DNA of 64,000 nt from a virus. Its lineage: Duplodnaviria > Heunggongvirae > Uroviricota > Caudoviricetes. The notes beneath the pieces are model-generated. The model worked only from the letters and a program-made list of their open reading frames with translations, was not told the DNA's origin and did not search any database. Below, one piece after another: positions 1,219 through 63,181 of the stretch; the first letter of the stretch is position 1, and every line of letters begins with the position of its first letter. Both the position numbers and the translations under genes were made by a program. The stretch covers positions 74,516 through 138,515 of IMG/VR virus record IMGVR_UViG_2843020057_000001; one strand, 5' to 3'.

Positions 1219-1285
1219 AATTAAAACCTCGTTTAATAGGAAAACGCTTATGATAAAATAATAAGGCAGGCAAGTTTCAAGGACG

Positions 1286-7486: not shown

Positions 7487-7605
7487 GAGACATTACCTCT
7501 TCCCGACCTTTAACGCTCATTTTAATTATACCACTGTTATATTTTTTAATTGAGTCGAAACGAGTGACAAAAAAGTCTATCATTATCGGTGTTACTAATA
7601 ATTGA

Positions 7606-7974: not shown

Positions 7975-8022
7975 AATTTAGCCTCCAAAAATTTATATTG
8001 TAAAACATCCATTTTATAAAGC

Positions 8023-14180: not shown

Positions 14181-14183
14181 GGT

Positions 14184-16274
14184 TTAGTACCTCTTGATTA
14201 AAGTTACTTTACTGTCTAGCTGTTTTAAGCCATTTTCCAGTTCACGCAGTTCTGCCACGTTAAAGGAGTAGCCAAAAATAACCACACTTTGGATTTCTAA
14301 TTGACGAGTACCAAGTTGGTTGAGTAATTCTTTAGTTTGGCTTGCTCCCCAACCTTCATTAACCAAGTAAAGTCGATTATCTTCAACTTTATGCGCGGTG
14401 TAGTTATCAAACTTAACTTCTTCAACATCAGCATCAAATGGATAACCATCCTTAGCTAACCATGTAGTCAGAATAGTTTCTTCACCTGTGGCATCCCCAT
14501 CTATTTTTAGGCTTTCACTAGAAAAGCCATCGACCATATTGGTAAACAAGTCAGTGTTGTTTGGATTAAAGTCTTCAATATCTTCCAAGGTTTGCTTAAC
14601 TGGTTTGACAACTCGATAGTGCTTAAAGCTGCCGTCAAAGTCTTCAGGCAAAGTTAGTTCATTATCTTCACGAATCTTTTTAGCAGCACGACGAATACGT
14701 TCACGAGAGATTTCGTCGATGGATTTAAAACCAGCATCATATGCTGCTTTGCCACCTGTAGTAGGTATCTTTTGGCCCCTTTTATCTAAAATGGTTTTTC
14801 CCGTATCTTTATCAACTTTGTAAGTCTTTTCTGGTAACTGAACCATAATAAACTTACGATGTCCACCATCCTCAGCATTAAGTTGCATTACTGCATCTGC
14901 TGTAGTACCTGAGCCTGCAAAAAAATCAAAAACCGTAATATTTTTACTGCTAAACAACGTTAAAAATAATTTGATTAAATCAGTACTCTTTGGTGAAGAA
15001 AATACCTCACGGTTATCAAAAAGTAATTTGAGTTTTTGTTTGGCCTTTGTGGTAGTTAGATCTAGATGATAATCAGTAGGCTTATTGTTAATAATTGCTT
15101 GATACTTTAAATTGGTTACGATACTTTTTAATCTTTTCGTTGTACTAAAATTTTTTTCAAAAATTTTAGTATCTGTAAACTGTAACGAATTAGTTTCAAA
15201 AAGTTCCATAAATTTATCTATAGAGTACGTATTTTCTACAAATTTATTATTTCTTTCTGAAATATATCGAATATATCCTTCACCAATTAATTCATTATCA
15301 ATATCGAGTATGTCCTTCTCTTTTCTAAAATGAATTTTCTGTTTTTCGGGCTGATAGTAAACGCTGTAATGTTTTTTAGAACTGTAGTTAGTAACTACAT
15401 CATTAAATTTATTTTCCCCTACCAGAACGCGTTTTCCGCTATTATGAACGAAATTACCATTCTCATCTTTAATCATTTCTGTAGATCTTTTCGGTATGTT
15501 TTCAATAAATTTAGCTTCATTAATTTTTTTAGCGTATAAGATGGCAAACTCACTGCTAACGGAAATAAACTTAGAGTTTTTTCTGCCTTTAGGATTATTT
15601 TCGACTGATAAATTTCCAATAAAATTATCCTCACCAAACACTTCATCCATTAATAATTTTAAATTGGCTTGTTCATTATCATCTATAGAGACAAACATCA
15701 CGCCTTCATCAGTTAGTAGCCTTTTTGCCAAAGTTAACCTTGGATACATAAATGTCATCCATGCAGAATGACTAGACCTTCCTTGAATACTTTTTAGTCG
15801 TGATAGTTGATCATCGTTAAGTTCAAACATTTCTTTTAACTTATCATCAGAGTATTCAAAATTATCTGGATAAACAAAATCATCTTTACCAGTGTTATAT
15901 GGAGGATCAATATAGATCACATCAACCTTATTTGTATATGCAGTTTGTAAATGTCGTAATACTTCGAGATTATCACCAGTAAAGAACAGGTTATTACTGT
16001 CCTTCCCTTCACCCTTATTTTGTTTCTCATCAGGGACAATCACCGTTGTCGGCATCTCACCTGCTTGACGCCGCGCATAATCTTTACCAATGAAATCTAG
16101 CTGATAACCTTCACTAAGTTCATTGCTGTTCTTTTCTTCTAGTTGCTCCTTGAACTTTTCCAAATCGAAGAAGCCATTTTTATTAAAGAACTCTGGCAAT
16201 TTATCTTTCAATTCATTTAAAAAGGCTGTGTTCGGCTGTACGGATTCATTATATTTTTCAGCATCTGTCTTCAT
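14184..16274 (-). CDS. mod: Type III R-M Mod subunit, N6-adenine DNA methyltransferase (beta class)
   Basis: DPPY motif VIYIDPPYNTG precedes the FxGxG motif FDFFAGSGTTADA (circularly permuted order typical of Type III Mod). Confidence 0.85.
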   Translation of the reverse strand: MKTDAEKYNESVQPNTAFLNELKDKLPEFFNKNGFFDLEKFKEQLEEKNSNELSEGYQLDFIGKDYARRQAGEMPTTVIVPDEKQNKGEGKDSNNLFFTGDNLEVLRHLQTAYTNKVDVIYIDPPYNTGKDDFVYPDNFEYSDDKLKEMFELNDDQLSRLKSIQGRSSHSAWMTFMYPRLTLAKRLLTDEGVMFVSIDDNEQANLKLLMDEVFGEDNFIGNLSVENNPKGRKNSKFISVSSEFAILYAKKINEAKFIENIPKRSTEMIKDENGNFVHNSGKRVLVGENKFNDVVTNYSSKKHYSVYYQPEKQKIHFRKEKDILDIDNELIGEGYIRYISERNNKFVENTYSIDKFMELFETNSLQFTDTKIFEKNFSTTKRLKSIVTNLKYQAIINNKPTDYHLDLTTTKAKQKLKLLFDNREVFSSPKSTDLIKLFLTLFSSKNITVFDFFAGSGTTADAVMQLNAEDGGHRKFIMVQLPEKTYKVDKDTGKTILDKRGQKIPTTGGKAAYDAGFKSIDEISRERIRRAAKKIREDNELTLPEDFDGSFKHYRVVKPVKQTLEDIEDFNPNNTDLFTNMVDGFSSESLKIDGDATGEETILTTWLAKDGYPFDADVEEVKFDNYTAHKVEDNRLYLVNEGWGASQTKELLNQLGTRQLEIQSVVIFGYSFNVAELRELENGLKQLDSKVTLIKRY

Positions 16275-18120: not shown

Positions 18121-18615
18121 CTAGTAGACAGCTCCATCATAAAAATTGAATGACGGCTTATTAAAGTCATAATTTTCTAATTCAGATAGCTTAATAAAGT
18201 TGTCACCAACACCATAAGTCATAAGGTTAATTGGCTTACCCCAGTCTTCATCTGGAATTACAATCAAATTATACTTACCTAATGCACGTGCCATTCCTAA
18301 TTCGACACCCATTCCCACATCTTCTTCTTCGGGAATATAGATAGCTAAGATAACGTCTGACGTTTGAACACCTACACGATCACCATTATAAGTAGCCGTA
18401 CTCCATTCACGATCTTCTAGTAATTCTGGATGTTCATCAACACGTAATCCCTTGTATTGATGTTGAAGTGGAACATAGCTGTTCGGCACATCGACTGTTG
18501 GATTATTTTCAATGGCTTTCATGGCTTCTGAATATGCTTTGTTTTGCTTTTCAGTAAACCAACCTGCGCAAAAATATACTGTCTTACTCTTAATCATTCT
18601 TTTATTCCTCCACAT
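18121..18615 (-). CDS. ndt: nucleoside 2-deoxyribosyltransferase
   Basis: Near-collinear with Lactobacillus NDT: YFCAGWFTEKQNKAY..., SYVPL.HQYKGLRVDEHPE, DVGMGVELGMARALGKYNLIVIPDEDWGKPINLMTYGV, C-terminal ...YDGAVY. Confidence 0.85.
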   Translation of the reverse strand: MWRNKRMIKSKTVYFCAGWFTEKQNKAYSEAMKAIENNPTVDVPNSYVPLQHQYKGLRVDEHPELLEDREWSTATYNGDRVGVQTSDVILAIYIPEEEDVGMGVELGMARALGKYNLIVIPDEDWGKPINLMTYGVGDNFIKLSELENYDFNKPSFNFYDGAVY

Positions 18616-23590: not shown

Positions 23591-24120
23591 TAGCCTTCTA
23601 CCTCCACTGGTTCAATCGCCTTTACCCATTCTGGTGCTTCTTCTAAATCTTTTGCGGTGACCACACGTTCATCCATAATTCCCCCAGCACCAAAAACATG
23701 ACAAATAGTCCAAATACCACGCCTGTTCTTATACGCATAGCCTTGAGTAGTTTCTCCAGGACATCCATGTTCTTCTGTACCTTCCATAGGTAAAATGTAT
23801 TTTTTATTAGGGTCAATAAGCGATTCAGAATCCCAAGATATTGTTACCTTCATTCTTTCATCATCTGGATCACTATTAACTGCGCCTAGGGTTACCGCAT
23901 ACTCATCTTTCATAACCAATTGATTAAATACATAATCAGCCTCTTCAAATCCATCGATAATTTGTTCTGTTTCAAAACGGCCTAGTGATACATTAGCGTG
24001 AATAGCACCATATACCCTTTTTAATGTCTCTTTATAAGCATTCTCTTTCTGTTTTGTTGCTCGTAAATTCGCTTCTTTTGCAGTAATTCGATTAAGTGGA
24101 TCATGCACTATAGTTTCCAT
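23590..24120 (-). CDS. hypothetical protein (paralog of 21878..22549)
   Basis: See 21878..22549. Confidence 0.4.
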   Translation of the reverse strand: METIVHDPLNRITAKEANLRATKQKENAYKETLKRVYGAIHANVSLGRFETEQIIDGFEEADYVFNQLVMKDEYAVTLGAVNSDPDDERMKVTISWDSESLIDPNKKYILPMEGTEEHGCPGETTQGYAYKNRRGIWTICHVFGAGGIMDERVVTAKDLEEAPEWVKAIEPVEVEG

Positions 24121-24917
24121 TAAGCCGTCTCCTTAGCTTCAGCATCATATTCGCCTTCATGGTCAGTAAGCTGTAAATTAGCTAAAGACTCAATTAGTTC
24201 TAAGTGCTTAGCGTTATCAATAGAACCAACTTCTAACAACTTATCGTAAATTTGACGTAAGACGGTCTTTCTATCATCAAGATTTTCCATGAAGTCATAC
24301 TTGTCTCCATCAATAACCAATAATGGAGACTTGTCGTAGGTATGTTTCCAATCTTCGTAATACTCAAGTAAAGTTTTGTAGTAATTGACTAAAGATGGAT
24401 CATTTTCAATTTGTTCATATTCACGGCCACGCTTTTTAATTCGCTTAAGCATAGTCTCATACGAAACATTAATCATAACCATTAAATCAGGAGCCTTTTT
24501 CCCAGGACTAAATTTAGGATATTCTTCCATCATATTGTCTAGAAGTTGTTTATAGATGTCATATTCTTCCTGTGTCGTATTGCCCATATCTGCGTTCATA
24601 CGCATAAAAATGGCGTCTTCGAAGATTGACCTATCCAGGACGTTATTATTGTTTTGCATTGCTTTTTTAATGAGATCGAAACGTCTATTTACAAAAAACA
24701 CCTGTAATACGAACGCAAATGGGTTTGTCGCTTTCATATCCCCTTCCGCTCTCTTCTTTGCCACATCCTCATTTCCCTGATAGAACAATTTCAGCACTGG
24801 ATTGTCCGTTACTGGTTCATAAAATGGTTCTGTTCCTAATTGTTCTGCTAAAATCTTGGTCATCGAGCTTTTGCCGCTCCCAATGATTCCTGACATCGTA
24901 ATCAATATAGTACTCAA
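24120..24917 (-). CDS. deoxynucleoside kinase (dAK/dGK/dCK family)
   Basis: P-loop SGIIGSGKSSMTKIL. ...EPV.DNP.L..FY... and ERS/DR(S)IFED arrangement typical of dNK. Confidence 0.8.
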   Translation of the reverse strand: MSTILITMSGIIGSGKSSMTKILAEQLGTEPFYEPVTDNPVLKLFYQGNEDVAKKRAEGDMKATNPFAFVLQVFFVNRRFDLIKKAMQNNNNVLDRSIFEDAIFMRMNADMGNTTQEEYDIYKQLLDNMMEEYPKFSPGKKAPDLMVMINVSYETMLKRIKKRGREYEQIENDPSLVNYYKTLLEYYEDWKHTYDKSPLLVIDGDKYDFMENLDDRKTVLRQIYDKLLEVGSIDNAKHLELIESLANLQLTDHEGEYDAEAKETA

Positions 24918-24928
24918 TCCTTTCTTAC

Positions 24929-25879
24929 TTAATCACTTATCATTTCATTTTCAATTAATTCTCGGACATATTTTGAGATAATCTTATTTAATCGTTTGCG
25001 CGCCTTCTTCGCATCAAACAATTTCGGTGCATTGCTGCCTTCTTCTTCAATGACATCATTCCACAACGCATTGGCTAGTGGTCTAGCAATATCACCAAAA
25101 TGTTCAAAATCAATTACATCTGGTAAAAGATTTTCATCTTTAAACTTTTCAATCATTTTGGTAATGCGAGCTTCCGTAACTGTCTCATCAATGAACTTCT
25201 CACTTTCGGTCTGAGATGGCTGTGGTTTCTTTTGCTTTCGAGTTTCTTTAAACTTATCAGACACTACCTTTGCGCGAACGCCATCACATTCGATAACTAT
25301 TCCTTCGCCATGATCTGGTTCCTTTGTAATCATTGATCTTCCAACCATCGCATTAATGTCTTCTTTGGTTAAAGTGTAGTTTGCCATACTAACTACATTC
25401 GGCTGTCTTAACCCTACTCGATCGGCAAAAGCAGTACGTTCAAAGAAATTATATTCATGACCGAATAGATCATCATAAAAACTAAAGAAATACCAATGGT
25501 TGTACATTTTTTGTTGATATTCAACTCGATGAGATACCAGCCATTCCCCATAGAGATAGTCATGTGCCTCGTCAATATTCTTATAGAATTCCATTAACTT
25601 TGGAATTAAGACCTCTTGTGCGTATTCGTAAAAGCCTCGCAAAGTATTGTCCTCACTAAGTCTTTGACGATGTGAATAAATTGCAAAGTCAATTTTTCCG
25701 TCCCTTTTAAGAACCTCTATACAACTATTAGCACCATCAATCTTTTCAGTAGCAACATAGTAGTTACCTGCTTTATTCTGTTCTAAAAGACTGGCTACTC
25801 CTTCATGCTTCGAGTTTGCCTCTTCTTGCTCTAAACGGTAAATCTTAGGAAATTTACGATAAGTTAATTCCACGGCCAT
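24929..25879 (-). CDS. Rnl2-family ATP-dependent RNA ligase
   Basis: Nucleotidyltransferase motif I EKIDGAN (KxDG), motif III YGEW, IV EGIVIE, V KVVSDKF, collinear with T4 Rnl2. Start moved to MAVELTY, which has AGGAGG 7 nt upstream. The track start at 25918 lacks an RBS. Confidence 0.8.
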   Translation of the reverse strand: MAVELTYRKFPKIYRLEQEEANSKHEGVASLLEQNKAGNYYVATEKIDGANSCIEVLKRDGKIDFAIYSHRQRLSEDNTLRGFYEYAQEVLIPKLMEFYKNIDEAHDYLYGEWLVSHRVEYQQKMYNHWYFFSFYDDLFGHEYNFFERTAFADRVGLRQPNVVSMANYTLTKEDINAMVGRSMITKEPDHGEGIVIECDGVRAKVVSDKFKETRKQKKPQPSQTESEKFIDETVTEARITKMIEKFKDENLLPDVIDFEHFGDIARPLANALWNDVIEEEGSNAPKLFDAKKARKRLNKIISKYVRELIENEMISD

Positions 25880-26004
25880 CTTTCCTCCTCTTAAATTTTT
25901 GTATACAAAAAGCGTCACCAGATTCTAACTAATCTCGCAAAGTGACGCTTTATTTGTATGTCTCGTTATAAATACGTAATAAAGAATTTCGCTAATAATA
26001 GCTA

Positions 26005-26064
26005 TGAGGTAGATGGGAATCGAACCCATATCCTAGCATGATCTACCAATTGAACTACTACCTC
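26005..26064 (-). ncRNA. 60-nt tRNA-like element lacking a canonical anticodon arm (pseudo/armless tRNA)
   Basis: Perfect 7-bp acceptor GAGGTAG/CTACCTC+A. D-arm GTTC-AATTGGTA-GATC. T-arm ATGGG-TTCGATT-CCCAT. Only 10 nt (CATGCTAGGA) where the anticodon arm should be. Confidence 0.3.
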
Positions 26065-26303
26065 CGTTGATTTAGTATACATTCATCAACGTCCCAAAGA
26101 TCTTATCTCGGCTTCAATTTATCGGAAGTGGAACCTTAGACGCTACGTTTCCTATTTATAGACGGATACACGTCTTCTTCGTTATCATCCACTCTGCCGT
26201 ACACCTTCATTGTGTATGATTGAGCTACTCTAGCACATAATGTGACGATCAATCACGTGCCGGAGGCTGGACTCGAACCAACAACCTGATGATATTCCGA
26301 ATA

Positions 26304-26678
26304 TGGAGTAGACGGGAGTCGAACCCGTGTCCAACCAAATCAGTTTCCAAATACATTTTAGACTTATTAGGATTATGTACTTAACTCTTAAGCTTAGACA
26401 GTCACACAATCATTTTCCAAAGGCTACCTAAACCGATCTAGTTTTATTACTTCATCACAACCAAACTAGCAAACGGCGGACAAAGACCAGAGGGGTGAAA
26501 TATGATAGCTAATATCCTTATCTGGTATCAAAATATTAACCAAGTGCCTATAAGCTAGGCAGCTAAAGCTGTAACTCTATGGTTATTTGCTTTTATATTT
26601 AAATGAAAGTATTTCGGCGTTATCTTCCGTAAGTCGTATTTAGGGCTTTATTTGACTGTCGAATCCATAAACTACCCC
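26304..26678 (-). ncRNA. ssrA: tmRNA (ssrA), tag reading frame ending ...ALAA-stop
   Basis: 5' end GGGGTAGTTTATGGATTCGACAG matches the tmRNA consensus GGGG...GGAUUCGAC. Acceptor GGGGTAG/CTACTCC with G3:U70 and A73 (Ala identity). 3' T-arm ACGGG-TTCGACT-CCCGT. Internal frame GCA AAT AAC CAT AGA GTT ACA GCT TTA GCT GCC TAG (ANNHRVTALAA*). Confidence 0.8.
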
Positions 26679-26740
26679 AGAATAGAGCTTTAAATCATAG
26701 CTCCAAATAATAATTCAAATCGACTTCTTAATGAAGTCTA

Positions 26741-26812
26741 TAACACGTACAGGATTCGAACCCATATCTCCACATTACCATAGTGGTGCTTCCCCATTTA
26801 AACTAACGTGTT
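26741..26812 (-). tRNA. putative tRNA-Thr(GGU), unusual A1-U72
   Basis: Manual fold. Acceptor AACACGT/ACGTGTT+A. D-arm GTTT/AAGC. Anticodon stem CCACT/TGTGG (one mismatch), loop ATGGTAA. T-arm ATGGG-TTCGAAT-CCTGT with wobbles. Confidence 0.45.
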
Positions 26813-27169
26813 ACTTATATATCAAAATATTTCTTGTGGTGGAACCCCTAACAGCTTTTGCCTTATTCCACATTTGTTCCTACTAGCTTCATAGGATGGG
26901 CATAGTCCTTATCCCTGCTAAGGGGCGCTGTCGTTACTCGCTGAATGTTTTGATATGTTCTTGTTAAGGGAGACCCATTTCGAGACCTTAACATCGCTAA
27001 CTTAGAAATCTCCTTTGTTCCTAATGCTAAAGACCGCGGGTGTTTCGGAACTCAGCGAAATTTCACTATTAACTGGTGATCAACCCCACTCACGGATTCC
27101 GCACATGCCTACGCTCCGTCAGCGAATATTGTACCTGTCTTTTATAAAATCCTGATTTTAAAAACAGGA

Positions 27170-27242
27170 TGGACCTTGCAGGACTCGAACCTACGACCGA
27201 GCGGTTATGAGCCGCCTGCTCTACCAACTGAGCTAAAGGTCC
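27170..27242 (-). tRNA. tRNA-Ile2(CAU, lysidine type) / Met-CAU
   Basis: rc reads GGACCTTTAGCTCAGTTGGTAGAGCAGGCGGCTCATAACCGCTCGGTCGTAGGTTCGAGTCCTGCAAGGTCCA. Cloverleaf is canonical. Sequence closely resembles Firmicutes tRNA-Ile(LAU). Confidence 0.85.
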
Positions 27243-27514
27243 AAAATGATAGACCATAAACCGCAAACTTGTCTATCCGTGAGCGTTTAATCCAATCTCA
27301 TATTTGCAACTATGTTTTCGGCAACTAAGCTCACAAGTATAAATGATTACTGCTGACACCAATGATCATTCATATCTGCTGACTCGATAGATGAATATCG
27401 TTACGACTGTGTCAGGTCGCCGTGTTACACCTAACAGGCGGAGGTTGTTTTAGTTAATTAATGTGTGCTTTTTAATTTTCACTGGCACGCAGTAGCACAT
27501 TTAAGGAACTGCAA

Positions 27515-27586
27515 AGCGGTTAACGAGACTCGAACTCGCGACAACAGCTTGGAAGGCTGTGGTTTTACCAGTTAAACTATAACCGC
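27515..27586 (-). tRNA. tRNA-Trp(CCA)
   Basis: rc GCGGTTATAGTTTAACTGGTAAAACCACAGCCTTCCAAGCTGTTGTCGCGAGTTCGAGTCTCGTTAACCGCT. Anticodon stem ACAGC/GCTGT, loop CTTCCAA. Confidence 0.85.
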
Positions 27587-27781
27587 ATTAGAGAGGTGAT
27601 TTATTTATATTCGCAGCTACACCCCACTGCTATCACATGCCAACAATACTAGGCATCCTACCCTACCCTCGTGTTGACTTCGAGACACCAGTTTTACAGT
27701 CTATGTTTCCAAGAACACACTGGATTTACTCTCCGCTCCGTTAAGTGAAATACAATTCTAGCGACGGCACACTAGAACCAA

Positions 27782-27855
27782 CTGCGAATATCGGATTTGA
27801 ACCGATGACACAAGGTTTAACAGACCTCTGCTCTAACCAACTGAGCTAATTCGCA
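27782..27855 (-). tRNA. tRNA-Asn(GUU)
   Basis: rc TGCGAATTAGCTCAGTTGGTTAGAGCAGAGGTCTGTTAAACCTTGTGTCATCGGTTCAAATCCGATATTCGCAG. U1-A72 and G73 as in bacterial tRNA-Asn. Anticodon loop CTGTTAA. Confidence 0.85.
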
Positions 27856-28360
27856 AAATTTAGAGAACACGATTAATCACTTCATATTCTCAAAGTAACA
27901 AGGATAGTTGATTAGTCCTATCGCTGAGGCGCACATTTAAGTACGTTGCTCTCCTTTACATACCAACCACTACATTCAAAGCGTTGACGCTTGCTACTCT
28001 AACTGCCCAGGACAGGATTCGAACCTGCTACCTCAGGGTCAATGTTTTTCAACACGCGCGTGTATCCCTGCGCTCTCGCCAAATATTTCGAGCTACCTAG
28101 ACGTAATAATGTCCACCCAGAAACGTTAGATAGTGAACTAATAAGTTAAGAGCTTGTTGACTGTGCTAAGTATCAGTCTGATTACTCTTAGAGCTTATAT
28201 CTTTTTATGGACATTGACTTAGCAATTCTGTCCGCGATTAATCACTACTATTTCTAGTAGATACCTTCGCATTGCGAAGATGTGGCCTATAACTAGGCAA
28301 ATCATTTTCAGACAGTTCAGTCGATCTTAAGCTGACCATTCTATAAAGAACTATCTGAAA

Positions 28361-28415
28361 TAGTCCTGTTGGGAATCGAACCCAATTAATCTTCCTAGTA
28401 CCATCAGACAGGACT
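28361..28415 (-). ncRNA. 55-nt armless tRNA-like element
   Basis: Perfect acceptor AGTCCTG/CAGGACT+A and T-arm TTGGG-TTCGATT-CCCAA. Only 25 nt between acceptor and T-arm. Shares a CTAGGA core with the 26005-26064 element. Confidence 0.25.
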
Positions 28416-29186
28416 CCAAACATAATACATGTATTTTTTCGTTACACCATCTTTAACGTGCGTGTTGAAAATTGTTACTAAAAGTCGCCGACACGGGACT
28501 ATCTTTCCGAAACCACAATTTAGGGGAGTGGCAATCCCGACAATAAATGTCGATTAAGGAGTCAAAGCTCCACGTTAATCTGATTAATCTTTAACAAGAC
28601 AGCCTCTTTCTTATCTGTCATACCTATTTCTTTTGCATTCTCTGAGCACGTGCTCTCTTGAACACCGAGGTGGGTAATTATGCTGTATTTCGAAGCCCTA
28701 CGTGAGCCGTAATCAGATTATATAAATAAGTTTATTATCTTATCGCTGTTACAACAGCAATTTAAAGATGGAAAACTTTATAAAAGAAGCATTTTACTAA
28801 CAGAAGGCATAAACTGTCATTCTTCCCACTAGCGGTCAGAACTTTTTCTAGACTGCTTTTTTATTTTTCAAATACTCCCGCCAATAACTAGTATGACTTG
28901 CAATCTTGTATTTGTATTATTCAGGGTGTAGATTACCAGAGCACCCGAACCTGCAACCCGAGAATTAAACTCAGCATTAACTTAGGCAATATCTGCATCG
29001 CAGGTAGTCGCACACGCAACCATAGCAATAAGAAGCGTGGCATCAATCACATTACGAGCATTAGAAACTCCTCCAGTTGTGAGTAGGATACCTCGTATAA
29101 ATCACATTACTGCCATTTATACTCAAGCGCTTCAACCGACACACCTGTTGCCGGTTTCCCTATTATACATATCCATATAACAGAAA

Positions 29187-29269
29187 CACCTAGAGAGGGA
29201 TTTGAACCCCCGAACCCGAAGGAACGGTTTTGGAGACCGTCGCGTTTGACCAGACTTCGCTATCTAGGT
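29187..29269 (-). tRNA. 83-nt type-II-like tRNA with anticodon loop CTCCAAA (CCA) and 12-nt variable region
   Basis: Acceptor ACCTAGA/TCTAGGT+G (7 bp perfect). Anticodon stem ACGGT/ACCGT perfect. Variable region TCCTTCGGGTTC with a UUCG-like mini-hairpin. T-arm GGGGG-TTCAAAT-CCCTC. Confidence 0.4.
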
Positions 29270-29424
29270 ATTAATAACGTGCCATGCCAGCGTAAACACG
29301 TTATTAGATCGAATTGAAAAATGTAAAGGTAAAGGTATATGGAAAACATAACCTATTGAACATACGTTAGGTGTTTTTACATTCCAAACGTTTTCCGTCA
29401 TTTGAAACAACCTATTGCTAGGAA

Positions 29425-29493
29425 TTTCGGCAATGGGAATCGAACCACATATCTACACCGCACAATGTTGCTCTACCATTGAGCTATGCCGAA
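29425..29493 (-). ncRNA. tRNA-like element with irregular anticodon arm (possible pseudo-tRNA)
   Basis: Acceptor TTCGGCA/TGCCGAA+A perfect. Canonical D-arm GCTC-AATGGTA-GAGC. T-arm with one bulge. Only 18 nt for anticodon arm plus variable loop. Confidence 0.35.
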
Positions 29494-41123: not shown

Positions 41124-41162
41124 CCAATAACCCCTTTTATATTTATTCTTTATTTACTTGGA

Positions 41163-45035: not shown

Positions 45036-46094
45036 TTAACGTGTTATTAGCTTTGATTGTCGTGCAGTCATATAAATTGAACTTTCCATTTCTGGTCGCG
45101 AGTGTATTAGCATTAACAATTGTTCTTTAGAGAGTTTATCAATATCGGAATAATCATAGTCTGCTGTTAAAATTGCAGTTCCTGTCGAGCTAGGGTCTTT
45201 TTGACTATGAATATACTTTTCTGTGGTTGCTATATTTTCATGGTCTAAAAAATCCTTGACCATTAAAATATCTTTAGTTTGGTAGTATAGAGATGTTGCG
45301 GCACCAGCACGCAATGAGTGAGGCGTCAAATGATGGTTTATCTTTTGACTAAATTCCTTGAAATATTCTCGAAGAGCATTTTGAGATAATTCATCGAAGA
45401 CAAAATCATTATCATTATCACGATAAAACAAGTTACGCAACATATCATAATATTCCCTACGCAAATATTTAGTATTAAGTTTCTGCCCCTTATCAATAAC
45501 GTCTAACCGTGCATAGCGTTCACTATTATTTCCTACAACAAATTGAAAATCTATCCATTTAATATGAAATGAGGCATTCACACGAATGCCAGTTTTGTAC
45601 ATAAAATCAACTAATAACGCATATTTTTTACCAAAATTATTATTAATATCATTCTTATATCTCTTTTCACGAAGAAACTTCTTTAATTCCTCCAATTCTT
45701 CTTTAGATATCGCTTCATGATGCTTGACATCATTAGTTTTTAACGATTTATCCGTCAAAACATAATTTAACAGGTTTGTATAATCAATATCACGAAAAAT
45801 CTTTTCACGATTTATCATTTTGATATATGATCTCACTGCTATTAAATGGCCTTTTATTGTTGTATCCTTAACACCTGCTTGTTTTAATGGTGTAACAAAC
45901 TTATTTAATACGTCACTAAATCTTAAATGAAATAAATCATATTGCTCAATCGTCTCAGGTTCTTTCTGAAAAACCATGGAATAGAACAACGTTACTGAAC
46001 TTTTATATTTTTTTATAGTGTTCTCAGACCACAACGAATTGATCCATGTTTGATACACACTACTTACGTCTATTTTCATAATAAATTCCTCCAT
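45036..46094 (-). CDS. tyrosine site-specific recombinase / integrase
   Basis: C-terminal R...HSLRAGAATSLY...TTEKYIH (HxxR, catalytic Tyr). Confidence 0.75.
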   Translation of the reverse strand: MEEFIMKIDVSSVYQTWINSLWSENTIKKYKSSVTLFYSMVFQKEPETIEQYDLFHLRFSDVLNKFVTPLKQAGVKDTTIKGHLIAVRSYIKMINREKIFRDIDYTNLLNYVLTDKSLKTNDVKHHEAISKEELEELKKFLREKRYKNDINNNFGKKYALLVDFMYKTGIRVNASFHIKWIDFQFVVGNNSERYARLDVIDKGQKLNTKYLRREYYDMLRNLFYRDNDNDFVFDELSQNALREYFKEFSQKINHHLTPHSLRAGAATSLYYQTKDILMVKDFLDHENIATTEKYIHSQKDPSSTGTAILTADYDYSDIDKLSKEQLLMLIHSRPEMESSIYMTARQSKLITR

Positions 46095-60515: not shown

Positions 60516-61724
60516 CTATTTAGCGTGATCTACAATAAATTCAAGACCGTCCCTATTCAATGTCTGAGCCTTTTCTTTTGGAATCCAAATTACGGGAACT
60601 ACTTGACCACCGTTAAAGTCTTTTAGCTTATCTTCCAACTTCGTGCGGAGCATTGTTTGGTCTTTCATAGGAATTGATCCACCGCCATGAACGTAAACAA
60701 CTTCAATTGTAGCTCCTGCTTTACGAACAGAACGACTAACTTCAGTCACAATACGGTCACAAAATGGTTCTAATTGTGCATAAACAACCTTTTGTACTGC
60801 CTCATACCGTCCTCTTGATAATGGACTTGGTTTTGTTGCTAAGAATTCTTTTAATTCTGCAACACTGCTAAAGTTGAACTTCTTATCTCTAAGTACCTCA
60901 AGTGCTTCTTCAAGAGCATTATCATATCCTTCTGACAATGAATATGATGCAGATACAAGAGCTTTTCCATTAACAATTACAACAATATCAACTGTTCCGG
61001 CACCAATATCAATAGAAACTACATTTTTGGCTTGGATTAAGTCCTCTGCTTTGACTAAGGAAGCCATTTCTGGATAACGTGTGTCGAAATCTTCTTTAAT
61101 CTTCTTGGTTAAATCTTTATCTTTCCCTGTTGAGATAAATAATTGGGCTGTTTCACCTTCTGTAGCAACAAATACCTTATCAAATTCAATCGTCACCGTA
61201 ATAGGGTTTTTAAAATTATGAAAAGTTACTTGGTGAGTACTTCCTGCATATCGTTCACGATACATATTCTTAGTCTCAATATTGCTACCTTCTTTAACAG
61301 GAAGAGCTGCCGCCATACGGGTATTTACTTTAAGTGGTTCTGATAAGTCTTTACCTTCCTCATATGCTTGTTCTACGGCTGCACCTGCAATCATACTCAA
61401 TGTAAGAATTAAAGAATAGTCACTTTCGGCCTTGCCAGCATAATCATTAATATCGAAATGAGTTAATGGTAAGTTTTGGTCAATGGCATTTTGTCCGATC
61501 AAGAATCGACCTGGCGTCTTTATTGAACTACTAGAAATTGTTACATCCATATGATTAAGAAATTCTTTCATATATTCGTCTTTTTGACTCTTGCTTTCGA
61601 ATTCAACTGGGGAAGCAATATCTTGTTCACGTTCAATGGTAAATACAGATGGGAATTGAATTTCCTTATCGTCAATTATTGCTTTGACTGAGCCATATCC
61701 TAAGTCGTTTGCTGTTTTCATCAT
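60516..61724 (-). CDS. parM: ParM/StbA-family actin-like segregation ATPase
   Basis: Actin-fold phosphate 1 DLGYGSVKA. ~400 aa. ...DIGAGTVD... phosphate 2 and ...VHGGGS... adenosine motif. Confidence 0.75.
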   Translation of the reverse strand: MMKTANDLGYGSVKAIIDDKEIQFPSVFTIEREQDIASPVEFESKSQKDEYMKEFLNHMDVTISSSSIKTPGRFLIGQNAIDQNLPLTHFDINDYAGKAESDYSLILTLSMIAGAAVEQAYEEGKDLSEPLKVNTRMAAALPVKEGSNIETKNMYRERYAGSTHQVTFHNFKNPITVTIEFDKVFVATEGETAQLFISTGKDKDLTKKIKEDFDTRYPEMASLVKAEDLIQAKNVVSIDIGAGTVDIVVIVNGKALVSASYSLSEGYDNALEEALEVLRDKKFNFSSVAELKEFLATKPSPLSRGRYEAVQKVVYAQLEPFCDRIVTEVSRSVRKAGATIEVVYVHGGGSIPMKDQTMLRTKLEDKLKDFNGGQVVPVIWIPKEKAQTLNRDGLEFIVDHAK

Positions 61725-61739
61725 GTTTATTGTCCTCCG

Positions 61740-61870
61740 CTTCGTTTATGATTCTATTATACTGCAATTTGAATGATTTTTGAATGATAATTGCGGTCAT
61801 ATATCATTCATTTAGATTATTATCGTTAATTTTGATTAATATGAATGATATATGAATGATTAAATAAGTC
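61740..61870. repeat. iteron-like TGAATGAT / ATCATTCA repeats upstream of parM (candidate parC centromere)
   Basis: tttgaatgatttttgaatgataatt...atatcattcattt...atatgaatgatatatgaatgatt. Similar repeats at 60003-60110 downstream of parR. Confidence 0.5.
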
Positions 61871-61988
61871 TATATTATATATAACTCACTTAACACAATA
61901 TATTATATACTATATATTTAACATTTACCACTATGGGGTAGTTTTTTATTAAAAAAATAAAAAGGCACTATTTGTGCCGTCTTACTTT

Positions 61989-62333
61989 TTACCCGTTTTT
62001 TAGAGATTTTGACATAAAATCTTTCTCTTCAAGAATTGAGACCATTTTTTCTAACCTAGTTATTTGACTATCATCCAAAGAGGCTTTTTCGGTTTCAATT
62101 AAATGATTAAGCAAGGCTTTCATATTTTTTTCAATTCCTAAATTTAATAATGCAGATAACTCATTTCGAATATGGTTATCCGCTCTTATATTCGCCGGAA
62201 ATGTTACAGATAATACTTGAGGTTCTTCTTTCTCGTTAACTATATCTTCTCTCTTGACTTTATTCCTTACAGAAACTCTTGATCCAGCCTTAAGTTTGGG
62301 TTTCTTTTGTTCCTTTGAATGAGTAAGAGCCAT
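61989..62333 (-). CDS. small centromere-binding ParB/ParG-like protein
   Basis: Downstream of parA with ATG/TAA overlap. N-terminal basic region. Confidence 0.45.
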   Translation of the reverse strand: MALTHSKEQKKPKLKAGSRVSVRNKVKREDIVNEKEEPQVLSVTFPANIRADNHIRNELSALLNLGIEKNMKALLNHLIETEKASLDDSQITRLEKMVSILEEKDFMSKSLKNG

Positions 62334-63181
62334 TATTCTTCAACTCCAATCTTTTTAACTAATTCTTTGGCAACTTCCTTGTATTTATTTTGTGCTCTCT
62401 GATCCCAAACATCATGTGGCCCATCGGTAATTCCAGTTATATCCATACGCTTTACACGTTCCATAAGTCTTATATGATTCTTGAAAACATCATCGCCCCA
62501 CATTTCTTTTGCCTTTTCCAAAATTACCTTATCTACTGCTGCGCCCTTTTTAGAAAGAACTGGAAGTACACCAATAACAACAACATCAGAATCAAACTCA
62601 TCAATTATAGTTGTTTGAATATATTCAACTAGATCTTCAGCTCCATCTAAAGAATGTTGCTGGGTCTGTAAAACAATTATAATGTCATCACAAGCGTAGT
62701 ATGCCGTATCATTTTGTAGACTTAACGTTGGAGGAACATCAATAAAAATAAAATCATATTTTCCTCTCAAATCCCTGTTGATTAGTTTTGAAAGGAATCC
62801 AACCTTATCTTGTTCTGATTTAAAATTATTTTCTAAGTATCGTCCATATAAAGAAAAATCAACTGCATTTGGAATCAAATAAAAATCCTTGGCAATCTCA
62901 ATGACCGTCTTCTCAAGATTCTCATTTTTCTTTATAGCATTCATCAATGTGTTATCAATAACTTCAATCTCATCATCATTTTTACTCTTTGTCTTTAATA
63001 ACAACGAAGTCATATTTGCCTGTGGGTCCAGATCTATTACCAAAGATTTATACCCCATTTTAGATAGATTATAAGCAACTAATGCCGTAGTTGACGTTTT
63101 CCCAACGCCACCTTTTTGGTTGCAAAAAGATATAACTTTAGTCTCCATAATTTTTGCTCCAATCATTTGTTCTAAATCCAT
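62333..63181 (-). CDS. parA: ParA/Soj-family Walker-type partition ATPase
   Basis: Deviant Walker A NQKGGVGKTSTTA. Confidence 0.85.
   Translation of the reverse strand: MDLEQMIGAKIMETKVISFCNQKGGVGKTSTTALVAYNLSKMGYKSLVIDLDPQANMTSLLLKTKSKNDDEIEVIDNTLMNAIKKNENLEKTVIEIAKDFYLIPNAVDFSLYGRYLENNFKSEQDKVGFLSKLINRDLRGKYDFIFIDVPPTLSLQNDTAYYACDDIIIVLQTQQHSLDGAEDLVEYIQTTIIDEFDSDVVVIGVLPVLSKKGAAVDKVILEKAKEMWGDDVFKNHIRLMERVKRMDITGITDGPHDVWDQRAQNKYKEVAKELVKKIGVEE

What the first reader, a model, noticed from the sequence alone, without database searches (positions are those of the whole stretch)
26304..26678. Element-borne tmRNA with tag ANNHRVTALAA flanked by mobile-element genes
A complete tmRNA (375 nt) was recognised by hand and is not in any ORF/feature track. 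It has the 5' consensus GGGG..GGATTCGACAG, Ala-type acceptor with G3:U70/A73, 3' T-arm, and internal ORF ...GCTTTAGCTGCCTAG. No smpB is adjacent. It is flanked on one side by RNA ligase/dNK genes and on the other by tRNAs. So it is either carried by the mobile replicon (as in some large phages) or marks an ssrA 3'-end integration site. An orphan tRNA 3'-half-like segment (GTTGG-TTCGAGT-CCAGC-CTCCGGC-A at ~26255-26282) sits 18 nt beyond the tmRNA 3' end, like an att scar.
Basis: seen in the sequence. Interest (0 to 1): 0.6.

Follow-up and report, generated by a model that had tools for sequence, protein, structure and literature searches.

The report
Phage-plasmid tmRNA with neighbouring tRNA mimic
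The window carries a genuine ribosome-rescue RNA (tmRNA) inside the tRNA gene cluster of a Limosilactobacillus-type phage-plasmid, which is an ordinary kind of thing for large phages, but the supposed "integration scar" next to it is really part of a conserved, circularly permuted tRNA look-alike RNA.

Summary
A complete one-piece tmRNA lies at 26304-26678 (- strand). ARAGORN gives the tag ANNHRVTALAA, and Rfam RF00023 scores 80.7 bits against a threshold of 47. It has a G3:U70 acceptor, an A73 discriminator and no encoded CCA.

It is element-borne and not an integration site:
- Window 17-64 kb is colinear with the backbone of circular ~130-kb Limosilactobacillus reuteri "plasmids". These carry portal, terminase, tape-measure and holin genes together with RepA, ParM and ParA, so they are phage-plasmids.
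- Ten relatives (8 distinct tmRNA sequences) keep the tag ORF 100% identical, while the PK3-PK4 region falls to 69-74% identity.
- The 3' end is not repeated in the window, no recombinase is adjacent, and no SmpB is present on the element.

The "orphan tRNA 3' half" is not a scar. It is the T-arm and 3' acceptor strand of a ~125-nt circularly permuted tRNA-like RNA. The order is closing stem, T-arm, closed 7-bp acceptor, D-arm, closing stem.
- 22 of 32 base pairs show compensatory changes.
- A model built from close copies recovers a very divergent variant and two elements in Enterococcus Schiekvirus phages.
- The topology matches YrlA (Y RNA-like), but it fails the Rfam threshold, lacks the Ro-binding motif and has no Ro60 neighbour.

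An anticodon-arm-less mini tRNA-like RNA and a conserved terminator close the RNA operon.

The tmRNA is a new member of a known kind. The tRNA mimic is the more novel part.

The parts
26304..26678 (-). One-piece tmRNA (ssrA) gene, 375 nt, with G3:U70 acceptor, A73 discriminator and no encoded CCA.
   Evidence: ARAGORN. Rfam RF00023, 80.7 bits against GA 47. Sequence read. Conserved in 10 relatives.
26555..26590 (-). Tag reading frame GCA...GCC UAG, encoding ANNHRVTALAA and a stop codon.
   Evidence: ARAGORN gene positions 89-124. 100% identical in 8 distinct tmRNA variants.
26172..26303 (-). Circularly permuted tRNA-like RNA with YrlA-like topology. Order: closing stems UUCG/CGAA and UAUCAUC/GAUGAUA, variable loop AGGUU, T-arm, 3' acceptor strand, 23-nt linker, 5' acceptor strand GCUAGAG, U8-A9, D-arm with an inserted hairpin. 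It starts 1-3 nt after the tmRNA 3' end.
   Evidence: MFE equals centroid fold, z=-2.3. Covariation. Model R1 recovers the divergent L012/L014 variant and the Schiekvirus elements, and gives no hit in 17 control loci. Rfam YrlA aligns full-length but scores only 14.5 bits.
26258..26282 (-).
   Evidence: The T stem changes compensatorily in L005 (GCGGG/CCCGU) and L012 (GUAGG/CCUAC).
26160..26175 (-). Small hairpin AGACG-UGUAUC-CGUCU directly after the closing stem. The L012 variant has AAGGUU...AACCUU at the same place.
   Evidence: Read from the sequence; its function is not tested.
26005..26064 (-). Mini tRNA-like RNA, 60 nt, with a 7-bp acceptor, D-arm and T-arm. The anticodon arm is replaced by a ~10-nt linker. 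Discriminator A, no CCA.
   Evidence: Rfam tRNA 47.1 bits with the anticodon arm deleted. Not called by ARAGORN. Three sequence types with covarying acceptor and T stems.
25907..25951 (-). Intrinsic-terminator-like hairpin AAAGCGUCAC...GUGACGCUUU followed by UUUU, closing the RNA operon. Nearly invariant in all relatives.
   Evidence: Sequence and alignments. The scan tool missed it because its loop exceeds 8 nt.
26740..26813 (-). tRNA-Thr(GGU), the immediate upstream neighbour of the tmRNA. Relatives have a different tRNA in this slot between the same flanks.
27167..29953 (-). Rest of the tRNA array: Met 27167-27243, Gly 27515-27586, Asn 27781-27856, Trp 29186-29270 and Arg 29877-29953, plus several non-canonical tRNA-like elements.
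24929..25879 (-). RNA ligase (PF09414, phrog_548). The probable start is ATG 25879 after AAGAGGAGG. The ORF tool listed a GTG at 25918 that lies inside the terminator. Present in the window and L001 only. Other relatives have an HNH endonuclease or nothing at this position.
24120..24917 (-). Deoxynucleoside kinase (PF01712).
45036..46094 (-). Xer-like tyrosine recombinase of the replicon backbone. This is the nearest Pfam-confirmed recombinase, about 18 kb from the tmRNA. An adjacent 427-aa ORF (43629-44912) has only a weak PHROG integrase hit.
60516..63181 (-). Partition genes: actin-like ParM/Alp7A (60516-61724) and a ParA-like ATPase (62333-63181). They mark the window as an extrachromosomal replicon.
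   Evidence: Colinear with the ParM/RepA region of NZ_CP065541.1.

Best explanation
The window is part of the backbone of a ~130-kb phage-plasmid of the kind found in Limosilactobacillus reuteri. Its tRNA operon on the minus strand (about 29,950 to 25,910) contains a functional one-piece tmRNA gene.

Shown:
- The gene has every sequence hallmark of a tmRNA.
- It lies in the conserved backbone, in the same position and orientation in all relatives.
- Its tag ORF is invariant while other parts diverge.

Inferred, from established knowledge of trans-translation and of tRNA processing in Firmicutes:
- The precursor is cut by host RNase P at the 5' end and by RNase Z after A73, and then receives CCA.
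- It is charged by host AlaRS through G3:U70 and works with host SmpB and EF-Tu, because the element has no smpB.
- It rescues ribosomes stalled on broken mRNAs and appends (A)ANNHRVTALAA, whose ALAA end is a ClpXP-type degradation signal.

The likely benefit to the element is extra ribosome-rescue capacity. This would matter when mRNAs are being cut, for example during lytic growth, under host RNase defences, or when the element's own toxin systems act (Doc here; MazF and YoeB in a relative).

Immediately 3' of the tmRNA the same transcript encodes a permuted tRNA-like RNA, then an anticodon-arm-less mini tRNA-like RNA, then a terminator. The permuted RNA folds like the tRNA-like module of YrlA Y RNAs and has a 7-bp acceptor. 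It is therefore a plausible RNase P, RNase Z and CCA-adding substrate, as M. smegmatis YrlA is. Its 5' end would be created by the same RNase Z cut that matures the tmRNA. Its partner and its function are unknown. The reading I favour is a tRNA mimic that binds or titrates a tRNA-recognising protein independently of Ro60.
For: tmRNA identity.

Conservation:
- The same tag occurs in 10 loci with 8 distinct sequences.
- The tag ORF is 100% identical while PK3-PK4 is 69-74% identical.
- The PK3 stem pair at alignment columns 199:228 is U.G, A-U or C-G in different variants.

Replicon type:
- L. reuteri plasmids NZ_CP065541.1 (circular, 132,625 bp) and NZ_CP102426.1 carry the tmRNA at 89-91% identity.
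- Their annotation includes terminase, a 9-kb tape-measure gene, holin, repA, RepC, ParM and toxin-antitoxin systems.
- A portal protein is detected at E=2e-110.
- Window 17.3-64 kb is colinear with that plasmid.
- The window itself encodes ParA, ParM, Doc and a Xer-like recombinase.

Precedent: annotated tmRNAs sit in Schiekvirus tRNA arrays, and tmRNAs occur in huge phages and some large plasmids (PMC7162821).

No SmpB: together with the annotation.

Permuted tRNA-like RNA:
- Folds.
- Close copies: 94.6% of cells paired against 34-48% in slid controls, and 6 pairs with double-sided changes.
- Model R1 finds L012/L014 at 38.6 bits (E about 5e-8) and gives no hit in 17 control loci.
- Ten-sequence alignment: 22 of 32 pairs have double-sided changes, 93.4% of cells are paired, and 0 of 500 shuffles reach the observed value on any measure.
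- Read from the sequences, the Levitt 15:48 pair is A:U in the phage-plasmid copies and in one of the two Schiekvirus elements (L032 6041-6144), and G:C in the other (L032 5876-5966).
Against: - There are no expression, processing or aminoacylation data, so function is inferred from conservation only.
- The Rfam tmRNA alignment is weak in the pseudoknot region (average posterior 0.58). Only one PK helix has clear covariation, because the variants fall into about three haplotypes.
- The block-wise divergence of PK3-PK4 could reflect recombination rather than relaxed or compensated evolution.
- The host chromosomal ssrA could not be retrieved. I therefore cannot say how the element's tag or 3' end compare with the host's.
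- The A4 alignment was fitted to the model's structure, which favours pairing.
- The tRNA array contains other tRNA-derived fragments, so some decay products do exist in this region.
Confidence: 0.75

Rival explanations
1. The tmRNA marks, or serves as, an attachment site. Either the element integrates into the host ssrA 3' end, or the window is a chromosome with an island inserted at ssrA. The neighbouring tRNA 3' half would be an att scar.
For: Many integrative elements target ssrA or tRNA 3' ends (established knowledge). The window encodes tyrosine recombinases. A T-arm plus acceptor fragment does sit next to the tmRNA.
Against: - The gene is full length, with its 5' half and tag conserved.
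- There is no repeat of its 3' 23-mer within 3 mismatches in the 64 kb.
- The recombinases are about 17-19 kb away, in the position of plasmid dimer-resolution genes.
- The locus lies in replicons deposited as plasmids (one circular, one recorded as linear), with phage and plasmid genes on both sides.
- The 'scar' covaries and is part of a larger fold.
Confidence: 0.04
2. The tmRNA is a hitch-hiking copy of a host gene with no role for the element, either neutral cargo or a decaying pseudogene in a tRNA array that is full of tRNA debris.
For: The array contains several non-canonical or fragmentary tRNA-like pieces. The tRNA content varies between relatives. The Rfam score is modest for a tmRNA.
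Against: - All ten relatives keep the gene at the same place.
- The tag ORF, resume region and tRNA-like domain are invariant while PK3-PK4 diverges by about 30%, with pairing kept in PK3.
- The 60 nt upstream are also conserved even where the upstream tRNA differs.
- No relative was found with a disrupted copy.
Confidence: 0.1
3. The tmRNA is functional, but its main role is regulatory rather than bulk ribosome rescue. It might sense stalled ribosomes to time induction or lysis. Alternatively, its distinct tag interior (HRVT) might change the fate of tagged proteins.
For: tmRNA affects the development of some temperate phages, and phage tmRNAs have been proposed to sense host physiology (PMC7162821 citing Janssen and Hayes). 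The element is a temperate-type phage-plasmid. The tag interior differs from that of the Schiekvirus phage tmRNAs, AKNEELLAVA.
Against: Nothing in the sequence distinguishes this reading from plain rescue. The C-terminal ALAA is the canonical degradation signal. The host tag is unknown here, so 'distinct' is untested.
Confidence: 0.1
4. The 'permuted tRNA-like RNA' is not a functional RNA. It would be recombination debris: the 3' half of one copy and the 5' half of the next copy of a tandemly duplicated tRNA gene, whose strands are complementary simply by descent.
For: Tandem duplication followed by loss of the outer halves is the accepted origin of permuted tRNA genes. The array is recombinogenic, with cassette-like tRNA swaps, and it contains other fragments.
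Against: - Pairing is maintained through double-sided changes in all six helices across four sequence types.
- The closing stem (4+7 bp) is longer than an anticodon stem and also covaries.
- The same architecture recurs at the same position with an unrelated sequence (L012/L014).
- It also recurs in Schiekvirus phages, next to a DUF2828-vWA gene.
- The element is as conserved as the tmRNA tRNA-like domain.
Confidence: 0.08

Closest known systems
Phage-encoded tmRNAs inside tRNA arrays, for example Enterococcus Schiekvirus phages iF6, EFDG1 and vB_OCPT_Bill, and huge phages (Al-Shayeb 2020)
   Same: A one-piece tmRNA embedded in a co-oriented tRNA cluster of a large tailed-phage-type genome. 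There is no adjacent smpB in the Schiekvirus loci examined. The last 34 nt are 94% identical to the Schiekvirus tmRNAs.
   Different: - The replicon here is a phage-plasmid with RepA, ParM, ParA and toxin-antitoxin genes, not a virulent myovirus.
- The tag is ANNHRVTALAA against AKNEELLAVA.
- Outside the 3' tRNA-like end there is no detectable nucleotide similarity.
- Here a permuted tRNA-like RNA directly follows the tmRNA. In Schiekvirus the comparable RNAs lie about 2.7 kb away, next to a DUF2828 gene.
Bacterial chromosomal ssrA (Rfam RF00023)
   Same: Full-length match to the model, G3:U70/A73 alanine identity, T-arm, a resume Ala codon, and a tag ending ALAA followed by a stop.
   Different: It lies on an extrachromosomal mobile element without smpB. 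The pseudoknot region is divergent (80.7 bits). CCA is not encoded.
YrlA / Y RNA-like RNAs (Rfam RF02553; Chen et al. 2014, PMC4201824), especially M. smegmatis YrlA
   Same: - Same topology: a long stem formed by the 5' and 3' ends, then T-arm, then an acceptor-like stem closed by a loop, then D-arm.
- The T-loop UUCGAGU, U8/A14, the GG in the D-loop and the 15:48 pair are tRNA-like.
- The 7-bp acceptor matches the M. smegmatis RNA that is cut by RNase P and receives CCA.
- The Rfam model aligns end to end over the element.
   Different: - 14.5 bits against a threshold of 69, and no hit at all on the L012 variant.
- The GNCGAAN0-1G Ro-binding motif is absent and the corresponding stretch is not conserved among variants.
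- No Ro60/TROVE or DUF2828 gene is found in the window or in the complete relative.
- The acceptor loop (23 nt) and the D-loop (27 nt with a hairpin) are much larger.
- It is fused to the 3' end of a tmRNA gene.
Circularly permuted tRNA genes (Cyanidioschyzon merolae type) and two-piece (permuted) tmRNAs
   Same: The 3' half (T-arm and 3' acceptor strand) is encoded upstream of the 5' half (5' acceptor strand and D-arm).
   Different: - There is no anticodon loop or BHB motif to be rejoined. A 4+7-bp stem takes the place of the anticodon arm.
- The acceptor is G1-C72/C2-G71/U3.G70, not G3:U70.
- No tag-like ORF follows it.
- Rfam tmRNA_permuted gives only weak partial matches elsewhere in the cluster (31.1 bits over the tmRNA 5' half; 13.6 bits over the mini tRNA-like) and none over the permuted element.
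Genomic islands and prophages integrated at the ssrA 3' end
   Same: A tmRNA next to mobile-element genes, with tyrosine recombinases on the same element.
   Different: The gene is complete, with no duplicated 3' segment. The recombinases are distant. The locus lies in circular replicons.

Membership tests
tmRNA (one-piece, Rfam RF00023) | Covariance-model score at or above the curated gathering score. | tested here: met
   80.7 bits against 47, E=1e-29, model positions 1-374 of 374.
tmRNA (one-piece, Rfam RF00023) | tRNA-like domain: a 7-bp acceptor with G3:U70, discriminator A73 and a T-arm. | tested here: met
   GGGGUAG/CUACUCC-A and ACGGG-UUCGACU-CCCGU, read. ARAGORN.
tmRNA (one-piece, Rfam RF00023) | Internal tag reading frame that starts at an Ala resume codon and ends with a hydrophobic A-L/V-A-A signal and a stop. 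| tested here: met
   GCA...GCU UUA GCU GCC UAG encodes ANNHRVTALAA*. Invariant in 8 variants.
tmRNA (one-piece, Rfam RF00023) | Pseudoknots PK1-PK4 supported by covariation. | tested here: inconclusive
   The model aligns across them with low posterior. The PK3 stem keeps pairing through U.G, A-U and C-G. There are too few haplotypes to test the others.
tmRNA (one-piece, Rfam RF00023) | Alanylation, SmpB binding and trans-translation activity. | not testable with these tools
   No smpB on the element. The host protein would have to serve.
Phage- or plasmid-borne tmRNA | The gene lies on an extrachromosomal phage-type replicon, within its conserved gene order. | tested here: met
   Colinearity with the circular NZ_CP065541.1, which has portal, terminase, tape-measure and holin genes plus RepA, ParM and ParA.
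ssrA-targeting integrated element (att site or scar) | A partial 3' ssrA segment duplicated at the other end of the element. | tested here: not met
   Only one match to the 3' 23-mer at up to 3 mismatches in the 64 kb. Only the window was searched.
ssrA-targeting integrated element (att site or scar) | An integrase gene adjacent to the att site, with chromosomal genes beyond it. | tested here: not met
   The neighbours are tRNAs, an RNA ligase and a deoxynucleoside kinase. The recombinases lie at 43.6-46.1 kb. Both flanks are phage-plasmid backbone.
YrlA (Y RNA-like, Rfam RF02553) | Covariance-model score at or above the gathering score. | tested here: not met
   14.5 bits against 69 for the window element. 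No hit at E<=10 for the L012 variant. The Schiekvirus elements score 43.2 and 34.4 bits, also below 69.
YrlA (Y RNA-like, Rfam RF02553) | tRNA-like module in the order T-arm, closed acceptor-like stem, D-arm, closed by a stem formed from the 5' and 3' ends. | tested here: met
   Folds and covariation.
YrlA (Y RNA-like, Rfam RF02553) | GNCGAAN0-1G motif (Ro60-binding) near the 5' end. | tested here: not met
   The window has UUCGGAAU, L005 UUCACAAC, L011 UUCGUUUU and L012 GUCACAAA. No conserved motif. The motif is defined in PMC4201824.
YrlA (Y RNA-like, Rfam RF02553) | Encoded within about 4 kb of a Ro60/TROVE orthologue on the same strand. | tested here: not met
   No TROVE or DUF2828 domain was found by Pfam in the window's two function-unassigned ORFs of 400 aa or more (9896-11206 and 43629-44912), in several other large window ORFs, or in the relative's large unannotated ORFs that were scanned. 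The remaining large window ORFs have other PHROG assignments. No tblastn hit to the Schiekvirus DUF2828 protein in the window or in the full YLR001 replicon. Whether the host chromosome has one was not testable.
Circularly permuted tRNA gene | The halves are rejoined to give a tRNA with a normal anticodon arm. | tested here: not met
   The ends form a 4+7-bp stem with an internal loop. There is no anticodon loop.

The most novel reading that the evidence does not exclude
The 3' end of this phage-plasmid's tRNA operon may be a dedicated 'tRNA-mimic' module. A tmRNA would be physically and processively coupled, through a shared RNase Z cut, to a Ro60-independent Y-RNA-like permuted tRNA. These would be accompanied by anticodon-arm-less mini tRNAs. 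Together they would act on the host translation, RNA-repair or tRNA-targeting defence machinery, for example as decoys for acceptor- or elbow-recognising nucleases or toxins, or as two-piece CCA-tailed RNAs after RNase P cleavage. That would define a class of Y-RNA-like tRNA mimics that work without Ro60.
Probability: 0.3. Interest if true: 0.7.

Novelty: new member of a known kind. Interest (0 to 1): 0.4.

Why it matters
The tmRNA adds a Lactobacillaceae phage-plasmid family to the list of mobile elements that carry their own ribosome-rescue RNA. These replicons sit in probiotic and gut L. reuteri strains and are deposited simply as "plasmids". An extra tmRNA with its own tag could affect stress tolerance, toxin-antitoxin recovery and phage induction in those strains.

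The neighbouring permuted tRNA-like RNA matters more for RNA biology. The function of the tRNA-like module of bacterial Y RNAs is still unknown, and those RNAs have only been looked for next to Ro60 genes. A conserved, covarying relative of that module in a replicon without any Ro60 gene would allow Ro-independent roles of the module to be tested. Its position directly behind a tmRNA and among other anticodon-less tRNA mimics adds to that interest. It also warns annotators that "tRNA fragments" in phage tRNA arrays are not necessarily debris.

Tried and rejected
- **Near-identical DNA in deposited phages.** None found. The RecD-like helicase is at most 31% identical to known phage proteins.
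- **Exact protein look-up of the RNA ligase to find the source contig.** Not on record.
- **Exact 23-mer of the tmRNA 5' end in 185,579 representative genomes.** 0 hits. The host ssrA does not share it, and the representative L. reuteri genome lacks the element.
- **17-mer of the permuted element in the same genome collection.** 17 hits in unrelated phyla, judged chance (about 70 expected). I used them as negative controls, and none matched model R1.
- **A 5' acceptor partner (GCCGGAG) for the orphan half on the same strand upstream.** None found. This prompted the search downstream that revealed the permuted order.
- **A GCCGGAG motif about 170 nt downstream in relatives.** I first took it for the partner strand. 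I rejected it because it lies in a ~100-nt indel that is absent from the window and from L005, and it pairs less well than GCUAGAG, which lies 23 nt downstream.
- **Second, permuted tmRNA.** Rejected: no G3:U70, no tag-like ORF after the stem, and only weak partial Rfam tmRNA_permuted matches elsewhere in the cluster, none over the element.
- **All-against-all covarying columns in the tmRNA.** Uninformative, because the variants form only about three haplotypes.
- **PDB sequence searches** with the Schiekvirus DUF2828 protein and with the RNA ligase. No hits. The DUF2828-Ro60 relationship therefore remains a lead from domain architecture only.
- **Literature search for DUF2828/TROVE and for an L. 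reuteri phage-plasmid description.** Nothing specific.
Full report
**1. The observation**

ARAGORN calls a tmRNA at 26304-26678 on the minus strand with tag peptide ANNHRVTALAA*. Infernal with Rfam RF00023 matches 26301-26678 end to end (model 1-374 of 374) at 80.7 bits, against a gathering score of 47, E=1e-29.

Reading the strand directly shows:
- the 5' end GGGGUAGUUUAUGGAUUCGACAG;
- the acceptor GGGGUAG/CUACUCC with G3:U70 and discriminator A;
- the T-arm ACGGG-UUCGACU-CCCGU;
- the tag frame GCA AAU AAC CAU AGA GUU ACA GCU UUA GCU GCC UAG.

UAU follows the discriminator, so CCA is not encoded. The only correction is that the T-arm-like segment starts 21 nt after the tmRNA end, not 18.

**2. 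What replicon this is**

- 93 of 109 ORFs are on the minus strand.
- PHROG and Pfam searches find an RNA ligase, deoxynucleoside kinase, PnuC, an SPFH protein, a RecD-like helicase, a DnaB-like helicase, an exonuclease and a Sak4-like ATPase. They also find a Xer-like tyrosine recombinase, Doc toxin, a clamp-like protein, actin-like ParM/Alp7A and a ParA-like ATPase.
- No deposited phage is close at the DNA level, and the RecD-like protein is at most 31% identical to any phage protein.
- Two Limosilactobacillus reuteri "plasmids" match: NZ_CP065541.1 (132,625 bp, circular) and NZ_CP102426.1 (128,846 bp). Identity is 83-85% over large parts of window 20-36 kb, and both carry the tmRNA at 89-91% identity over its full length.
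- NZ_CP065541.1 is annotated with terminase, a 9-kb tape-measure gene, holin, XhlA and a phage specificity protein. It also has repA, RepC, ParM/StbA, an AAA ATPase, tyrosine recombinases, MazF, YoeB and Phd modules, and metabolic cargo.
- PHROGs add a portal protein (E=2e-110) and tail proteins.
- Window 17.3-64 kb is colinear with that replicon, from its tRNA region through DnaB, the recombinase and the toxin-antitoxin loci to ParM and almost to repA. Window 1-17 kb is different cargo: a transposase, an oxidoreductase, Mrr and a helicase/ResIII/methyltransferase cluster.

The window is therefore backbone of a phage-plasmid of this family. It is not a chromosome with an island.

**3. Is the tmRNA maintained?**

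Exact-word scans of IMG/VR and of metagenomes, together with the two plasmids, gave ten loci with eight distinct tmRNA sequences. All of them encode ANNHRVTALAA.

The tag ORF is 100% identical in all of them. The 5' domain with PK1 is 95.5-100% identical. The PK3-PK4 block of the window is only 69-74% identical to the others. In the PK3 stem, alignment columns 199:228 read U.G, A-U or C-G in the three haplotypes, and the neighbouring pairs change on one side only.

The roughly 60 nt upstream of the gene are nearly invariant even where the upstream tRNA is a different one. This pattern is what is expected of a gene under selection for tRNA-like and tag function. A pseudogene would not show it.

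**4. Not an att site**

- The tmRNA's last 23 nt occur once in the window at up to three mismatches.
- The gene is complete.
- The recombinases lie 17-19 kb away.
- Both flanks are phage-plasmid backbone.
- The replicon is circular in a finished assembly.
- No SmpB gene is detectable by tblastn in the window or in the whole YLR001 replicon, and none is annotated there.

The RNA must therefore use host SmpB, AlaRS, EF-Tu, RNase P, RNase Z and the CCA-adding enzyme. That step is inference from established tmRNA biology.

**5. Precedent**

tmRNAs inside tRNA arrays are annotated in Enterococcus Schiekvirus phages, namely iF6 and the vB_OCPT phages. Their tag is AKNEELLAVA. The window's tmRNA shares only its last 34 nt with them.

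Huge phages and some large plasmids also carry tmRNA, with or without SmpB (PMC7162821). The tmRNA here is therefore a new member of a known kind.

**6. The 'orphan tRNA 3' half'**

No upstream 5' partner exists. Alignment of the flank in relatives showed that this segment is as conserved as the tmRNA's tRNA-like domain. Its T stem also changes compensatorily: GUUGG/CCAGC in the window, GCGGG/CCCGU in L005 and GUAGG/CCUAC in L012.

The partner strand lies downstream. On the minus strand, 26303 to about 26178 reads:

UA | UUCG | GAA | UAUCAUC | AGGUU | GUUGG-UUCGAGU-CCAGC | CUCCGGC | A | 23-nt linker | GCUAGAG | UA | GCUC-AAUC[AUACAC..GUGUAC]GGCA-GAGU | G | GAUGAUA | A | CGAA

This is a tRNA opened where the anticodon loop would be and closed at the acceptor. 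RNAfold recovers this fold on its own. The MFE structure equals the centroid, at -38.2 kcal/mol and z=-2.3.

- **Close copies.** On seven close copies, 94.6% of cells pair, against 34-48% when partners are slid. Six pairs have changes on both sides, and 0 of 500 shuffles reach this.
- **Independent recovery.** A covariance model built only from those copies (R1) finds the very different L012/L014 version full length, at 38.6 bits and E about 5e-8. It gives no hit in 17 unrelated control loci.
- **Schiekvirus hits.** The same model hits two elements in Enterococcus phage vB_OCPT_Bill.
- **Ten-sequence alignment.** 22 of 32 pairs change on both sides and 93.4% of cells pair. No shuffle reaches any measure. 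This alignment was fitted to the model, which favours pairing.
- **The L012 version.** It has a canonical D-loop (AAUUGGCAGA) and a fully paired acceptor (GCCGGAG/CUCUGGC).
- **Tertiary pair.** The 15:48 pair is A:U in the phage-plasmid copies and in one of the two Schiekvirus elements, and G:C in the other. This fits a tRNA-like tertiary fold (read).

**7. Relation to YrlA**

Rfam's YrlA model is the best non-tRNA alignment over the element. It aligns end to end with the same order of helices, but scores only 14.5 bits against a threshold of 69. It does not see the L012 variant at all.

According to Chen et al. 2014 (PMC4201824):
- YrlA RNAs were sought only in genomes with a TROVE protein;
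- they lie within about 4 kb of Ro60;
- they carry a GNCGAAN0-1G motif;
- the M. smegmatis RNA, which has a 7-bp acceptor, is cut by RNase P and receives CCA in vivo.

Here the motif is absent and the corresponding stretch is not conserved among variants. No TROVE or DUF2828 protein is found in the window or in the full YLR001 replicon.

The two Schiekvirus elements score 43 and 34 bits on YrlA. They sit directly upstream of a 510-aa DUF2828+DUF7788+vWA protein. Whether that protein is Ro60-like was not tested.

The window element therefore works like the tRNA-like module of YrlA, and probably shares its origin. I do not file it as a YrlA member.

**8. The rest of the RNA operon**

A 60-nt tRNA-like RNA without an anticodon arm lies at 26005-26064. 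Rfam tRNA scores it at 47 bits, and ARAGORN does not call it. It exists in three sequence types with covarying acceptor and T stems.

A nearly invariant terminator hairpin follows at 25907-25951. The next gene is variable: an RNA ligase in the window and L001, an HNH endonuclease in YLR001, and the deoxynucleoside kinase directly in others.

All twelve T-arm motifs of the 64-kb window lie on the minus strand between 26,005 and 29,903. Several belong to further non-canonical tRNA-likes that are conserved in relatives.

**9. Mechanism, with shown and inferred steps marked**

Shown:
- the gene anatomy;
- its position in a phage-plasmid backbone;
- its conservation;
- the absence of smpB, of a Ro gene and of an att repeat;
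- the fold and covariation of the permuted RNA.

Inferred:
- The RNAs are co-transcribed as part of the tRNA operon.
- RNase P and RNase Z process the transcript, and CCA is added.
- One RNase Z cut after A73 of the tmRNA also creates the 5' end of the permuted RNA.
- The tmRNA is alanylated and acts in SmpB-dependent trans-translation, adding a ClpXP-type tag.
- The benefit is extra rescue capacity when mRNAs are being cleaved, during lytic growth, under host RNases or when the element's own toxins act.
- The permuted and mini RNAs act as tRNA mimics for an unknown partner.

**10. Verdict**

The finding is real. The att-site and scar reading is wrong.

The tmRNA is a new member of a known kind and of modest interest. 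The adjacent tRNA mimic, Ro-less and YrlA-like, is the part that deserves follow-up.

Noticed in passing
window 29425-29493 (-): tRNA-like element with a normal acceptor, D-arm and T-arm but a truncated anticodon arm (3-bp stem, 8-nt loop). Rfam tRNA scores it at 50.1 bits, and ARAGORN does not call it. It is 83-99% identical in six relatives.
   Followed up: partly
window 28361-28415 (-): A second mini tRNA-like: acceptor GUCCUGU/ACAGGAC plus T-arm UUGGG-UUCGAUU-CCCAA, with only about 22 nt between them. It gives a weak Rfam mascRNA-menRNA match (23.3 bits). Conserved at 84-95% in relatives.
   Followed up: partly
window 28004-28102 (-): tRNA-like element in normal order (acceptor GUCUAGG/CCUGGGC, D-arm, stem CAGGG/CCCUG, T-arm) with a 27-nt 'anticodon loop' that contains its own hairpin. 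Neither ARAGORN nor Rfam calls it. Conserved at 84-98% in relatives.
   Followed up: partly
window 29735-29875 (-): Directly after tRNA-Arg lies GCGAAG, then about 100 nt, then the T-arm AGAGG-UUCGACU-CCUCU and CUUCGC-A, then the hairpin GGGCA-GAAA-UGCCC. This is an acceptor plus T-arm frame around a long insert. It is 90-98% conserved in six relatives. Its nature is unknown.
   Followed up: partly
L032 5864-5970 and 6047-6154 (-), in Enterococcus phage vB_OCPT_Bill (OM966901.1): Two unannotated YrlA-like RNAs (Rfam 43.2 and 34.4 bits, below the threshold of 69). They lie at the end of the phage's tRNA array, directly upstream of a 510-aa 'hypothetical protein' (UNZ10510.1) with DUF2828+DUF7788+vWA domains. 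This may be a Ro60/Y-RNA-type module in Schiekvirus phages.
   Followed up: partly
window 26075-26085 (-) versus L001, L004, L006, L011-L014: Between the permuted RNA and the mini tRNA-like, most relatives carry an extra ~100-nt segment that starts GGAGGGUAGCUCCCUC (a hairpin). The window and L005 lack it. The segment comes in at least two sequence versions.
   Followed up: no
tRNA arrays of window, L001, L002, L004-L006, L011-L014: The tRNA complement differs between otherwise near-identical relatives: Thr, Phe(AAA), Ile(UAU), a second Trp, Tyr. The slot just upstream of the tmRNA holds different tRNAs between identical flanks, which suggests cassette-like exchange. tRNA-Phe with anticodon AAA is unusual.
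   Followed up: partly
window 1244-1420 (+): A match to the Listeria sRNA rli28 (RF01492) just above threshold (48.1 bits against 45). It overlaps a 170-aa minus-strand ORF. The region is 80% identical to part of the L. reuteri YLR001 replicon.
   Followed up: no
window 5833-16274 (-): Defence-like cargo that is absent from the YLR001 relative: an Mrr restriction endonuclease, a 630-aa helicase, a 436-aa protein with no family hit, a 996-aa ResIII helicase with a VRR-NUC-like endonuclease domain, and a 696-aa DNA methyltransferase.
   Followed up: partly
window 18121-18615, 24120-24917, 30915-31718, 42896-43474 (-): A cluster of nucleotide- and NAD-salvage genes spread along the backbone: nucleoside deoxyribosyltransferase, deoxynucleoside kinase, a PnuC nicotinamide riboside transporter and a dNMP kinase.
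   Followed up: no
window 24929-25918 (-): The mechanical ORF for the RNA ligase starts at a GTG inside the terminator stem. The likely true start is ATG 25879, 7 nt after AAGAGGAGG (316 aa). The ligase is present only in the window and in one metagenomic relative. YLR001 has an HNH endonuclease in the same slot.
   Followed up: yes
L008 27967-28845 (-) and L008 20261-21436 / 40594-41754 (NZ_CP065541.1): The relative's structural module carries a LAGLIDADG endonuclease next to the terminase, and two TnpB (IS200/IS605) genes. This points to active homing and transposition in this phage-plasmid family.
   Followed up: no
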